From: Deltaproteobacteria bacterium | GTDB lineage: Bacteria > Myxococcota > XYA12-FULL-58-9 | Assembly: GCA_016218825.1 (NCBI GenBank) | Contig: JACRCV010000006.1 | Coordinates: 6,797-70,796, forward strand | Direction of reading: 5' to 3' | Length of the DNA stretch: 64,000 bases | In this document: piece by piece, positions 41,455-50,790 of the stretch | Numbering within the stretch: position 1 is the stretch's first letter | Layout of the letters: each line of letters begins with the position of its first letter | Made by a program: the position numbers and the translations under genes | The notes under the pieces: model-generated | Told to the model about the DNA's origin: nothing | Database searches by the model: none | What the model saw: only the letters and a program-made list of their open reading frames with translations

Positions 41455-44400
41455 ATGACTCTGAGCTCACGACGGCTGTTCGTTGTCTGCGTCGGTCTGA
41501 TTCTCGCTCCGGCGGCGGGCTGCAACCGCCTGCTCGCGATTCCCGACCTGGCGTGCAACACCGCCGCCGACTGTCTCGCCGACCAGTCGTGCGCCTGGCG
41601 TCCGGGGGCGTGTACGTGCAAGTCCGGAGCCTGTTACTTCGATGCGAGCGTGGCGGTCGATTGGGGCGAAACCGGGTGCCGCGCGTGTCACGGCAGCCTC
41701 GCGAATCCGGCGCCGCCGCTGTCGATTGCCGGCGGCGACCGGGCGGACGAGATCGCGGTCGGAGCCCATCAGACGCACCTCGGCGGCGGGTTGGCGTCGC
41801 GGCCGGTGGCCTGCAGTGAATGTCATCAGGTTCCGGTTCGCGTCGATGCGCCGGGGCACGTCGATACCGAGCTGCCGGCAGAGGTGGCCTTCGGCGCGCT
41901 CGCCACCGGCGCCGGCGCCGTGATCGCCGACTGGGAACGCGGCCTGGAGCGCTGCTCGAGCTATTGTCACGGCGCTACGCTTCCGGGGGGGACGAACACG
42001 ACGCCGCAGTGGACCCGCGTCGACGGCTCCGAGGCCGCCTGCGGCTCGTGCCACGGTCTGCCGCCGGCCGGCGGGCACCCGCAGAGCAACGCTTGCGAGC
42101 AGTGCCACTTTCCGAGCGCGGGCCCCAGCGGGAGCATCGCCAATCGGTACACCCACGTGGACGGCAAGCTCGACCTGGTGCTGACCTGCACGAGCTGTCA
42201 CGGCACCCCCGGGGTGAACCCCGCGCCACCGCTCGACACCACGGGCGGCAGCGCCACGATCCTCGTCACCGTGGGCGCCCACCAAGGTCACGCCACGACG
42301 GGGGCGCTCAGGGTCGCGATCGCCTGCACCGAGTGTCACCCTGACAACGGCACCGACACCGCCCACGCCGACGGTGTCGTCGACGTGATCTTCGGGGCGC
42401 TCGCGGACCAGGGTACGACGACGACGTGGGACGGGGGCGCGGCGACCTGCGCCACCGACTACTGTCACGGCGGCAGCGCCGCGTTGCAGGGCGGCAGCGA
42501 GACCACGCCGGTGTGGACCAGGGTCGACGGCAGCCAGAAGACCTGCGTGAGCTGCCACGGCAGCCCGCCGCCGCCGCCGCACGCTCAGAGCGACGTCTGT
42601 GACGCGTGCCACGCGGGCTACAGCAAGACCGGGGTCACGACCGGGGTCGTCAATCTGCTGTCGCACATCGACGGGACGATCGACGTCACCTCCGTCACTT
42701 GCACCGGCTGCCACGGCGATCCGGCGACCGGCAGCTCCTACCCGCCGCGGGGCACGCACGGCGAGCTACAGAGCAGCGACGCGGCCGTCGGCTCCCACGT
42801 CGCGCACATGGAGCCCTCCGCCTGGCACCGGCAGGTGGCGTGTGGCGACTGTCACCTGGTGCCGACCTCGCCGGGCCACACCAACGGCGTCGTCGAAGTG
42901 CCGCTCGGCGGCCTCGCGGTGGCGGCCGGGTCGACCCCGGCCTTCGATGACGCGGCGCTGTCCTGCACGAATGTCTACTGCCATGGTGCGACCCTGTTCC
43001 CGGCCAACGCCGCCGGCGTCATCAGGCGCACGCCGGTCTGGACGCAGGTCGACGGCACCTTCAACGCCTGCGGCAGCTCGTGCCACACGAATCCGCCCGG
43101 CGTCCCGCATCCACAGGTGGGACAGTGCTCGACCTGCCATGCAGCGGTGATCGACGCGAACGCCGTGATCATCACGCCGTCGCTGCACATCGACGGCCAC
43201 ATCGACGTCGCGCCGCCGAGCTGCGACACCTGTCACGGCAGCACCGCCAACCCGGCGCCGCCGGCGTCGACCACCGGATTGACGAGCACCACGGCGCTGA
43301 CGGTGGGCGCGCACCAGCAGCACCTGGCGGTCGGGCCGCTGGCGCTGGCGATGCCCTGCGACGAGTGTCACCTGGTGCCGGCGGCGGTCACCGACCCGGC
43401 GCACTTGGATCTGCCGCCCGCCGAGGTCGTCTTCGGGCCGCTGGCGACGACCGGCGCCGCGCCCGCGGCCTGGGACGGCTCCCGGGCGCAGTGCGCCAAC
43501 GTCTACTGCCACGGCGCGACCTTGACCGGCGGCAGCAATCGCACGCCCGCCTGGACCACCGTCGACGGCTCGCAGAGCGCTTGCGGCACGTGTCACGGCA
43601 ACCCGCCCCCGCCTCCGCATCCGGCGCCCACCGGCTGCAACGCGTGCCATTCGGCGACCGTCACCGCGGCGGGCACCCTCGACGTGGCCGGCGGCCACCA
43701 CGTCGACGGCCGGGTCGACGTCGACGGCCTGTCTTGCACCTCGTGTCACGGCGACGGTCTGACGAACGATCCGGCACCGCCGCTCGGCACGCGCGGCGAA
43801 ACGCTGACGACGTCACCGGCGGTCGGCGCCCACGTGCAGCACCGCGCCGCATCCAACACCCACCGGGTGGTTCAATGTGGGGACTGCCACGTCGTTCCGA
43901 GCTCGCCGATGCACTGGAACGGCGTGGTGGAGCTCGCCTTCGGCGGCCCGGCATCTGCCGGCGGCGCGGCGCCCTACTACGACGCGGCGTCGAGCTCGTG
44001 CGCCGACGTCTACTGCCACGGCGTCACGTTGTCCGGCCCGAGCGCCGGTGGTGCGGTCAAGCGGACGCCGATCTGGACGCAGGTGGACGGCAGCTTCGCC
44101 GCTTGCGGCGCGTCCTGCCACACGAACCCCCCAGGGGCGCCGCACCCGGCCAGCACCCAGTGCTGGAGCTGCCACGCCGCGGTCATCACCGCGAGCGGCA
44201 GCTTCGCGAACGCGGCGCTGCACGTCAACGGCAGCGTCGACGAGACCGACCCGGCCTGCAACTCGTGCCATGGCAGCGTCGCGAACGACGCGCCGCCGGT
44301 GTCGACGCGCGGCGCGGTGACCACCGCCGACATCGGCGTCGGCGCCCACCAGAAGCACCTGGTCGACGGCCCGATGCGCGGCGCGCTCGCCTGCGACGAG

Positions 44401-50790: not shown

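What the first reader, a model, noticed from the sequence alone, without database searches (positions are those of the whole stretch)
41455..50790. Single-chain lipoprotein with about 80 c-type heme sites
Seen: 14 penta-heme modules plus 10 C-terminal motifs (63 CX2CH, 4 CX3CH, 13 CX4CH by hand), lipid-anchored at the N-terminus. Established: counts this high are rare and known mainly from metal-reducing Desulfuromonadales and Methanoperedens. Inference: a monomeric, covalently continuous nanowire tens of nm long in a myxobacteria-like organism.
Basis: partly seen in the sequence, partly recalled or inferred. Interest (0 to 1): 0.85.

Follow-up and report, generated by a model that had tools for sequence, protein, structure and literature searches.

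The report
Giant 80-haem modular lipoprotein cytochrome
The gene is real and encodes a 3,111-residue lipid-anchored protein with 80 haem-attachment sites; it belongs to an annotated but uncharacterised family of giant cytochromes in myxobacteria-like organisms and sits next to an outer-membrane pore and a 33-haem partner, so it probably works as a long electron cable on the cell surface.

Summary
ORF 41455-50790 (+) encodes 3,111 aa with 63 CX2CH, 4 CX3CH and 13 CX4CH motifs, 80 in total (shuffles give 1.6). They are arranged as a signal peptide with lipobox Cys23, a six-Cys mini-domain, 14 pentahaem modules of about 171 aa, and a 10-haem C-terminal domain.

It is not unique. It matches TIGR01904 (CxxxxCH/CxxCH domain) 14 times, and 23 of 119 database relatives carry more motifs, up to 151. 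Most relatives come from Anaeromyxobacter and other Myxococcota. No member has a solved structure or a tested function.

New here:
- The adjacent convergent genes encode a 33-haem cytochrome and, overlapping it by 4 nt, a confidently predicted 22-strand outer-membrane barrel.
- This pair recurs beside shorter versions of the same lipoprotein (4-7 modules, 31-45 motifs) in three other loci. One of these was predicted from the six-Cys domain before its context was examined.
- End modules are conserved by position. Window modules 7-13 are an internal amplification under purifying selection (dN/dS about 0.28).

Best reading: the surface arm of a porin-cytochrome-type conduit, with a length set by module number. 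Location, haem occupancy and extended shape remain inferred.

The parts
41455..50790 (+). Gene for the 3111-aa, 80-haem-motif modular c-type cytochrome. The mature apoprotein is 309 kDa, about 358 kDa with 80 haems.
41455..41523 (+). Signal peptide ending in a lipobox-like A-A-G-C (Cys23)
   Evidence: Sequence. Cassette-linked relatives show SLAAC, AVSGC and GLGC at the same place. 86 of 120 relatives have a lipobox-like signal.
41524..41661 (+). N-terminal six-Cys mini-domain (C34, C40, C46, C53, C55, C60). It marks the cassette-linked subfamily.
41662..48876 (+). 14 tandem pentahaem modules (aa 70-2474), each with 5 CXnCH and 5 further invariant His
44758..48348 (+). Modules 7-13: an internal amplification of one module type. 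DNA identity 76-89%, dS 0.37-0.78, median dN/dS 0.28.
48877..50787 (+). C-terminal 10-haem domain with a haem-free insert around aa 2750-2890. It lies at the C-terminus of about 45 of the 119 other relatives listed.
50836..52215 (-). 459-aa outer-membrane beta-barrel with a signal peptide and 22 predicted strands. It belongs to a family with no Pfam or NCBIfam model.
52212..54842 (-). 33-haem c-type cytochrome with a Sec signal. Its stop overlaps the barrel start by 4 nt.
39167..41249 (-). ResB-like and CcsA-type (WGRYWAWDP motif) System II cytochrome c haem-lyase pair, divergent from the giant gene. It is a possible maturation factor. The adjacency is not conserved in relatives.
   Evidence: no ResB or Cytochrom_C_asm gene
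32494..34861 (+). ExtP/ExtQ-like membrane cytochrome b followed by a 7-haem cytochrome. It is a candidate inner-membrane quinol-side entry point. The link to the giant gene is an inference only.

Best explanation
The gene encodes a Sec-exported, N-terminally lipid-anchored multihaem c-type cytochrome of the CxxxxCH/CxxCH-domain family (TIGR01904). It is built from 14 pentahaem modules, each with all five haems probably bis-His ligated, plus a 10-haem C-terminal domain. I propose that it is the cell-surface arm of a porin-cytochrome-type outer-membrane conduit. In this model electrons leave the quinol pool and travel along the adjacent 33-haem cytochrome, which is long enough to cross the periplasm and sits inside the adjacent 22-strand barrel. 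They enter the giant protein near its lipid anchor, six-Cys domain and module 1. They then run through about 70 closely spaced haems to the C-terminal domain, which hands them to an insoluble or distant acceptor such as a metal oxide, humic matter, an electrode or a partner cell. The same haem chain would also store up to 80 electrons. Reach is set by module number, which evolves by internal tandem duplication. Shown: motifs, modules, family membership, the barrel fold prediction, synteny, and purifying selection. Inferred: haem occupancy, ligation, surface exposure, direction of flow and extended shape. If the chain is straight it would be about 60-105 nm long, assuming 0.8-1.3 nm per haem. 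The upper value comes from 27 haems spanning about 350 Angstrom in PMC11492766; the lower values are my recollection of GSU1996 and OmcS.
For: Family: TIGR01904 scores 416 bits against a cut-off of 27, with 14 stretches. Pfam gives Cytochrome_C7, c3_2 and PF09698. Each module has invariant C..CH x5 plus H37, H40, H65, H137 and H165 across 51 module pairs from 5 proteins. Haem density is one per 34 aa. Partner genes: the 459-aa neighbour folds as a 22-strand barrel (pLDDT 87.4, pTM 0.79), all listed Foldseek hits are outer-membrane barrels, and family C-termini end in GYRF-like motifs. The 33-haem gene overlaps the barrel gene by 4 nt. The 33-haem/barrel pair is found in every locus holding a barrel relative (L006/7, L008, L023, L024, L025). 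A TIGR01904 lipoprotein with the same six-Cys N-terminal domain lies beside the pair in L006/7, L024 and L025. L025 was predicted from the six-Cys motif alone and then confirmed. L017 shows a module ORF next to a 33-haem homologue. The relative in L006 has 4 modules and the same C-terminal domain (65% identity over 637 aa). First modules match window M1 (62-66%), its last module matches M14 (66%), and its third matches M8/M11-13 (72-77%). The amplified modules are under purifying selection. Published Pcc clusters pair a porin-like protein with a periplasmic cytochrome and usually an outer-membrane lipoprotein cytochrome (PMC4245776).
Against: The giant gene is convergent to the 33-haem/barrel pair, so it is not co-transcribed with them. 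The cytochrome b (PF01292) that completes the cassette in L006, L024 and L025 is absent from the window. Five larger or similar relatives are stand-alone genes with no barrel within 10 kb, as is P0078, which shares the C-terminal domain. The lipobox has Ala at -3 and Pro at -4, and no dedicated predictor was available. No secretion system for surface display is encoded in the window. The two-module model is of moderate confidence (pLDDT 66.8, pTM 0.52) and has no Foldseek match, so inter-module geometry is unknown. There are no expression, haem-occupancy or localisation data.
Confidence: 0.6

Rival explanations
1. The protein is a periplasm-facing electron capacitor. It would be anchored to the inner leaflet of the outer membrane, or to the inner membrane, and would lie within the periplasm. 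Its role would be to buffer up to 80 electrons when acceptors fluctuate, not to conduct them outward.
For: The capacitor role was proposed for the 40-haem Anaeromyxobacter cytochrome (PMC2330069) and for giant cytochromes in sludge MAGs (PMC11495043). By default, Gram-negative lipoproteins face the periplasm (general knowledge). Most large relatives are stand-alone genes. No surface-export system is encoded in the window.
Against: The synteny of the six-Cys subfamily with an outer-membrane barrel and a 33-haem cytochrome has no obvious explanation under this model. End modules are conserved while internal ones vary in number, which looks like tuning of length rather than of capacity alone. An extended 80-haem chain would be several times the width of the periplasm (170 Angstrom quoted in PMC11492766).
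Confidence: 0.2
2. The conduit is the same but runs in reverse. The protein would collect electrons from Fe(II) minerals, cathodes or partner cells and pass them inward, as in Mto/Pio-type systems.
For: Porin-cytochrome conduits are known to work in both directions (MtoAB, bioRxiv 10.1101/2024.09.20.614158). Nothing in the sequence sets a direction. The window also encodes a GMC flavoprotein dehydrogenase and cytochrome b, which do not discriminate.
Against: Cultured relatives that carry family members (Anaeromyxobacter) are known as metal reducers (PMC4245776, PMC2330069). No carbon-fixation or Fe(II)-oxidation marker was seen in the window.
Confidence: 0.1
3. The module number is an assembly artefact. 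Tandem 513-bp repeats may have been collapsed, expanded or chimerically joined, so the true gene would differ in length.
For: Nine 513-bp copies reach 92% identity over 300 nt. The protein is recorded on a single contig only. Reads are not available.
Against: The longest exact internal repeat is 117 bp. Every module is distinct: 76-89% DNA identity over full modules and dS of at least 0.37. The frame stays open over 9.3 kb with exact 513-bp spacing. Independent assemblies hold relatives with up to 30 modules. Collapse of near-identical copies, which would make the real protein larger, cannot be excluded.
Confidence: 0.08

Closest known systems
CxxxxCH/CxxCH-domain (TIGR01904 / PF09698) giant cytochromes of Anaeromyxobacter and other Myxococcota, e.g. 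the 2081-aa protein of Anaeromyxobacter sp. Fw109-5 (P0033); the 40-haem cytochrome of A. dehalogenans 2CP-C (PMC2330069) is the published precedent, but its family was not checked here
   Same: The same pentahaem module in tandem, a lipoprotein-type signal and the same phylum.
   Different: Best non-self identity is 46%. The window protein has 14 modules, against 2-30 in relatives. It carries the six-Cys N-terminal domain found in only 2 of the 120 proteins listed, one of them the window protein itself. It lies beside a barrel/33-haem pair, which the Fw109-5 protein and several larger relatives do not. No member has been characterised.
Porin-cytochrome conduits: Geobacter Pcc (OmbB-OmaB-OmcB) and Ext clusters, and Shewanella MtrCAB
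   Same: The gene logic matches: a periplasmic multihaem cytochrome gene coupled to an outer-membrane barrel gene, with a lipoprotein multihaem cytochrome encoded beside them (PMC4245776).
   Different: No sequence match to curated Mtr or Dms families: DmsE reaches 33.8 bits against a cut-off of 192, and the barrel hits no Pfam or NCBIfam model. The periplasmic partner has 33 haems instead of 5-14. The barrel has 22 predicted strands, within the 18-22 range of Pcc, against 26 in MtrB (from memory). The surface partner has 31-80 haems in repeated modules instead of 5-12.
c7-type 'polymer' cytochromes of Geobacter (GSU1996 dodecahaem, PDB 3OV0/3OUQ; the 27-haem single-chain wire predicted in PMC11492766)
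   Same: A single polypeptide made of repeated small haem domains, proposed to act as a wire or capacitor. Pfam Cytochrome_C7 matches 8 stretches at 260 bits.
   Different: The unit here is pentahaem and includes a CX4CH site. Five invariant distal His imply all-bis-His ligation, whereas GSU1996 has one His-Met haem per domain (from memory). The profile match to 3OUQ is not significant (E 0.044). The protein is lipid-anchored and far longer.
Polymeric cytochrome filaments OmcS, OmcE and OmcZ
   Same: The proposed function is the same: electron transport over long distances along stacked haems outside the cell.
   Different: Those filaments are non-covalent polymers of 4-8-haem subunits. This is one covalent chain of fixed length. 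There is no sequence or fold match to any PDB entry.

Membership tests
TIGR01904 / PF09698 CxxxxCH/CxxCH-domain c-type cytochromes | Score above the curated cut-off of the family model | tested here: met
   TIGR01904 scores 416.2 bits (cut-off 27) with 14 stretches. PF09698 scores 47.2 bits (cut-off 21.7).
TIGR01904 / PF09698 CxxxxCH/CxxCH-domain c-type cytochromes | A paired CX4CH ... CX2CH motif inside each repeat | tested here: met
   13 of 14 modules have CX4CH followed by CX2CH or CX3CH. Module 1 has CX3CH in that place.
c-type cytochrome (covalent haem) | Export signal, CXnCH sites and a haem-lyase system available | tested here: met
   Signal peptide, 80 motifs, and a ResB/CcsA pair adjacent. 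Actual haem attachment cannot be tested with these tools.
Bacterial lipoprotein | Lipobox [LVI][ASTVI][GAS]C at the end of a signal peptide | tested here: inconclusive
   The window has A-A-G-C23 with Pro at -4, which is non-canonical at -3/-4. Cassette-linked relatives have L-A-A-C, V-S-G-C and G-L-G-C. 86 of 120 relatives have a relaxed lipobox. No SPII predictor was available.
Porin-cytochrome (Pcc/Mtr-type) trans-outer-membrane conduit | An outer-membrane beta-barrel gene directly coupled to a periplasmic multihaem cytochrome gene | tested here: met
   A 22-strand barrel is predicted at pLDDT 87.4. It overlaps the 33-haem gene by 4 nt. The pair is conserved in L006/7, L008, L023, L024 and L025.
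Porin-cytochrome (Pcc/Mtr-type) trans-outer-membrane conduit | An outer-membrane lipoprotein multihaem cytochrome encoded in the same cluster | tested here: met
   The giant gene ends 45 bp from the barrel gene, in convergent orientation. The same subfamily lies beside the pair in L006/7, L024 and L025.
Porin-cytochrome (Pcc/Mtr-type) trans-outer-membrane conduit | Sequence homology to MtrA/MtrB/MtrC or DmsE/DmsF families | tested here: not met
   The barrel has no Pfam or NCBIfam hit. The 33-haem protein reaches only 33.8 bits on DmsE (cut-off 192). PF22113 on the giant's C-terminal domain is borderline, 31.1 bits against 30. Direct comparison with Geobacter OmbB/OmaB/OmcB was not done.
Porin-cytochrome (Pcc/Mtr-type) trans-outer-membrane conduit | Physical complex that transfers electrons across the outer membrane | not testable with these tools
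   This needs purification, proteoliposome assays or a structure.
c7-type polymer cytochromes (GSU1996-like) | Tandem trihaem c7 domains homologous to PpcA/GSU1996 | tested here: inconclusive
   Pfam Cytochrome_C7 scores 260 bits over 8 stretches. However, the PDB profile search gives only E 0.044 to 3OUQ, and the repeat unit is pentahaem.
Cytochrome filaments (OmcS/OmcE/OmcZ) | Homology to a filament subunit | tested here: not met
   No PDB sequence hit and no Foldseek hit.

The most novel reading that the evidence does not exclude
This is a length-tunable, single-polypeptide nanowire system. Fixed ends would dock on a dedicated 22-strand barrel/33-haem conduit at one end (lipid anchor, six-Cys domain and module 1) and contact the acceptor at the other (module 14 and the 10-haem head). 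Between them, an internally amplifiable pentahaem module would set the reach: 4, 7, 7 and 14 modules in four related loci. Together with the periplasm-spanning 33-haem partner, this would form a continuous chain of more than 110 haems, roughly 100 nm long, made of just two polypeptides and running from the inner-membrane face to far outside the cell. The pentahaem module would be a fold not yet represented in the PDB.
Probability: 0.35. Interest if true: 0.75.

Novelty: new variant of a known kind. Interest (0 to 1): 0.55.

Why it matters
Extracellular electron transfer over tens of nanometres is currently explained by polymerised small cytochromes (OmcS, OmcE, OmcZ) or by 10-12-haem surface proteins. 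Giant single-chain cytochromes are seen in surveys but have no assigned partners, structure or function.

This window gives one such protein a concrete, testable context:
- a dedicated barrel/33-haem pair;
- a subfamily marker (the six-Cys domain) that predicted the same cassette in an unrelated contig;
- a natural series of 4, 7, 7 and 14 modules with conserved ends.

That series allows direct tests of whether reach scales with module number. It also offers a defined-length, genetically encoded protein wire for bioelectronics, and extends such conduits to Myxococcota from soils and sediments.

Tried and rejected
- The exact-sequence look-up of the giant protein found no contig, although the protein database lists it.
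- The first genome-contig scan with the whole protein found nothing. Alignments A4, A5 and A7 were too diverse for pattern scans. The metagenome scan with A2 returned only two loci, which were not examined.
- Tandem Repeats Finder missed the array because its longest period is 500 bp and the repeat is 513 bp. The repeat finder recovered it.
- PDB searches found no significant match: by sequence for the whole protein, the module profile and the C-terminal domain, and by Foldseek with the two-module model. No structural relative can be named.
- The idea that the divergent ResB/CcsA pair is a family-conserved, dedicated lyase for CX3/CX4CH sites was rejected as a conserved feature. No relative's locus has it. 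It remains possible for this genome.
- The idea that the C-terminal 10-haem domain marks cassette-linked members was rejected. P0078 has that domain but no cassette within 10 kb. The six-Cys N-terminal domain is the marker instead.
- The opposite-strand 2196-aa ORF (43813..50403) was rejected as a gene on codon-position GC and the homology of the + frame.
- The downstream lipoproteins (54978-56300, 56379-58607) and the BchE-like radical SAM gene are not in the related cassettes and were not included.
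Full report
**1. Observation**

A single ORF, 41455..50790 on the + strand, starts with ATG and encodes 3111 aa. Its codon-position GC is typical of genes in this 70% GC window (GC3 0.92). No two motifs share a histidine, and shuffles of the same protein give a mean of 1.6 motifs with a maximum of 7.

The motifs are arranged as follows:
- 14 modules of about 171 aa (aa 70-2474), each with five sites in a fixed order;
- a 637-aa C-terminal region with ten more widely spaced sites.

At the DNA level the modules repeat with an exact 513-bp period.

The N-terminus has a charged n-region and a hydrophobic core, with Cys23 after A-A-G. A short region with six further cysteines follows (aa 34-60). 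The mature apoprotein is 309 kDa, or about 358 kDa with 80 haems.

**2. Is the gene real?**

- The longest exact internal DNA repeat is 117 bp.
- The most similar modules (7-13) are 76-89% identical over their full 513 bp. Synonymous divergence is 0.37-0.78 and median dN/dS is 0.28.
- So each copy is distinct, old and under purifying selection. Artificial duplication would not produce this.
- Collapse of near-identical copies cannot be excluded without reads.

**3. Family**

NCBIfam TIGR01904 (CxxxxCH/CxxCH domain c-type cytochrome) matches 14 times at 416 bits against a cut-off of 27. Pfam gives Cytochrome_C7, Cytochrom_c3_2 and PF09698.

The protein search returned at least 150 relatives, of which 120 are listed. 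The best non-self identity is 46%. Many are annotated 'CxxxxCH/CxxCH domain-containing protein' from Anaeromyxobacter, Myxococcota or 'Deltaproteobacteria' MAGs.

- Motif counts show that 23 of the 119 other proteins listed have more motifs than this one, up to 151 in 5264 aa.
- A profile of the 14 modules finds up to 30 modules per relative.
- A scan of species-representative genomes found the module in Anaeromyxobacter terrae, A. soli and strain PSR-1, in Myxococcales, Archangiaceae, Polyangiaceae and Kofleriaceae MAGs, and in Calditrichota.

The haem count is unremarkable within this family.

The literature agrees:
- 40 motifs in A. dehalogenans (PMC2330069);
- up to 87 in Desulfuromonadia (PMC11492766);
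- 112 in an Acidobacteriota MAG and more than 100 in Bacteroidota (PMC11495043).

None of these giants has been characterised.

**4. Module anatomy**

Across 51 module pairs from five proteins, the invariant residues in each module are the five CXnCH sites plus five further histidines, at module positions 37, 40, 65, 137 and 165. That is exactly the number needed for bis-His ligation of all five haems (inference). Haem density is one per 34 aa.

A two-module AlphaFold2 model is mostly coil with short helices, as expected for haem-packed proteins. Its confidence is only moderate (pLDDT 66.8, pTM 0.52). Foldseek finds no PDB match for it. Sequence and profile searches of the PDB give nothing significant, the best being the GSU1996 fragment 3OUQ at E 0.044. 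The module fold therefore has no solved representative that I could detect, and the geometry between modules remains unknown.

**5. C-terminal domain**

- The last 642 aa (10 motifs, with a haem-free insert) recur at the C-terminus of about 45 of the 119 other relatives listed.
- They give only borderline Pfam matches: Paired_CXXCH and MtrC/MtrF domain II/IV at 31.1 bits against a cut-off of 30.
- They have no PDB relative.

**6. Neighbourhood**

*Upstream.* A ResB-like and CcsA-type System II haem-lyase pair lies divergent from the giant gene. Its WGRYWAWDP motif is intact.

*Downstream.* Convergent and 45 bp away lies a 459-aa protein with a signal peptide and no Pfam or NCBIfam hit. Overlapping its start by 4 nt is a cytochrome with 33 haem motifs and a Sec signal.

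*The 459-aa protein is an outer-membrane barrel.*
- An exhaustive profile search found 44 relatives at E below 1e-30, all about 410-495 aa. Most end in a GYRF-like motif.
- With a 35-sequence alignment, AlphaFold2 predicts a 22-strand beta-barrel with high confidence (pLDDT 87.4, pTM 0.79).
- All 50 listed Foldseek hits are outer-membrane barrels: ushers, TonB-dependent transporters and porins.

**7. Synteny test**

Every locus holding a barrel relative also has a homologue of the 33-haem cytochrome immediately upstream. These loci are L006/7, L008, L023, L024 and L025, with 41-62% identity between the full-length homologues and the window protein.

In L006/7, L024 and L025 a TIGR01904 lipoprotein cytochrome lies beside the pair, together with a PF01292 cytochrome b. 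The window has no such cytochrome b.

These cassette-linked cytochromes share the six-Cys N-terminal mini-domain with the window protein. Among the 120 proteins listed, that domain occurs only in the window protein and in P0039. I therefore predicted that P0039 would sit next to the cassette, and it does. Its locus carries, on one strand, an 838-aa 33-haem cytochrome, a 456-aa barrel, a cytochrome b and then P0039.

Conversely, P0078 has the C-terminal domain but not the six-Cys domain, and it has no cassette within 10 kb. Five other large relatives are also stand-alone.

**8. Module-number evolution**

| Locus | Modules | Haem motifs | C-terminal domain |
|---|---|---|---|
| L006 | 4 | 31 | yes, 65% identical to the window's over 637 aa |
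| L024 | 7 | 38 | no |
| L025 | 7 | 45 | yes |
| window | 14 | 80 | yes |

- The first module of each relative best matches window module 1 (62-66%).
- The last module of L006 best matches module 14 (66%).
- The third module of L006 best matches window modules 8 and 11-13 (72-77%).

So the ends are positionally conserved, and the window's modules 7-13 are an internal amplification of one module type.

**9. Mechanism**

The anatomy fits the logic of porin-cytochrome conduits. Those combine a periplasmic multihaem cytochrome inside a barrel with a lipoprotein cytochrome outside (PMC4245776).

I propose this path:
1. The 33-haem protein carries electrons across the periplasm and through the 22-strand barrel.
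2. The giant lipoprotein docks through its anchor-proximal six-Cys domain and module 1.
3. It conducts the electrons along 14 modules to the C-terminal head.

At 0.8-1.3 nm per haem, 80 haems would span about 60-105 nm if straight. The upper value comes from 27 haems over about 350 Angstrom in PMC11492766; the lower values are my recollection of GSU1996 and OmcS.

All of this is inference. Haem occupancy, surface exposure, direction of flow, oligomeric state and shape are untested. The giant gene is convergent to its proposed partners. No surface-export machinery is encoded in the window.

The main rivals are a periplasm-facing capacitor, inward electron uptake, and a copy-number assembly error.

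**10. Novelty and verdict**

The protein itself is another member of an annotated family and is not the largest. What I did not find in the searched literature is the following combination:
- a conserved cassette linking a six-Cys-marked subfamily of these cytochromes to a barrel family with no curated model and a 33-haem partner;
- a natural series of module numbers between conserved ends.

I rate this a new variant of the porin-cytochrome kind, of moderate interest. A more exciting reading, a length-tunable single-chain nanowire, is not excluded.

Noticed in passing
window 39167-41249 (-): A divergent ResB-like/CcsA System II haem-lyase pair lies 205 bp upstream of the giant gene. CcsA scores below the TIGR03144 cut-off (133 against 187.6 bits) but keeps the WGRYWAWDP motif. 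It could be a paralogue specialised for CX3CH/CX4CH sites. The adjacency is not seen in any related locus.
   Followed up: partly
window 31867-37119 (+): A same-strand run of four genes: an ExtP/ExtQ-like cytochrome b, a 7-haem cytochrome c, a gluconate 2-dehydrogenase subunit-3-like protein and a GMC flavoprotein. It looks like a membrane-bound flavocytochrome dehydrogenase joined to a cytochrome b.
   Followed up: no
window 37168-38652 (-): A B12-binding radical SAM protein most similar to BchE (388 bits, below the 481 cut-off) lies between the dehydrogenase genes and ccsA. Nothing else in the window indicates a phototroph.
   Followed up: no
window 15881-29206 (+): A cluster encoding citrate synthase, PrpD/MmgE, aconitase, isocitrate dehydrogenase and citrate lyase (an ACP-beta fusion and an alpha subunit). 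It is interrupted by a 1205-aa RCC1-repeat protein with a lipoprotein-like signal and by an HD-domain protein.
   Followed up: no
window 29207-31612 (+): A Ser/Thr protein kinase fused to an adenylate/guanylate cyclase domain. This architecture is typical of myxobacteria and is consistent with the inferred host.
   Followed up: no
window 54978-58607 (-): Two lipoprotein-signal proteins lie downstream of the 33-haem gene. One has no family match. The other has Sortilin/BNR-like beta-propeller repeats and a weak F510_1955 glycosylhydrolase match. Neither is present in the related cassettes.
   Followed up: partly
window 43813-50403 (-): A 2196-aa open frame lies antisense to the giant gene. It is a shadow ORF caused by high GC content and the repeat structure, not a gene.
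   Followed up: yes
L005 1-8912 (locus of P0017): Upstream of a 91-motif relative lies a separate cluster of six or seven multihaem cytochrome genes with a 439-aa protein of no family between them. That protein is not a member of the barrel family defined here (no HMM hit), so it may belong to a different porin-cytochrome system.
   Followed up: partly
L006, L024, L025 next to the barrel gene: A PF01292 (Ni_hydr_CYTB) membrane cytochrome b of 396-504 aa completes the cassette in three related loci. It is missing from the 64-kb window, so the inner-membrane entry point in this organism is unclear.
   Followed up: partly
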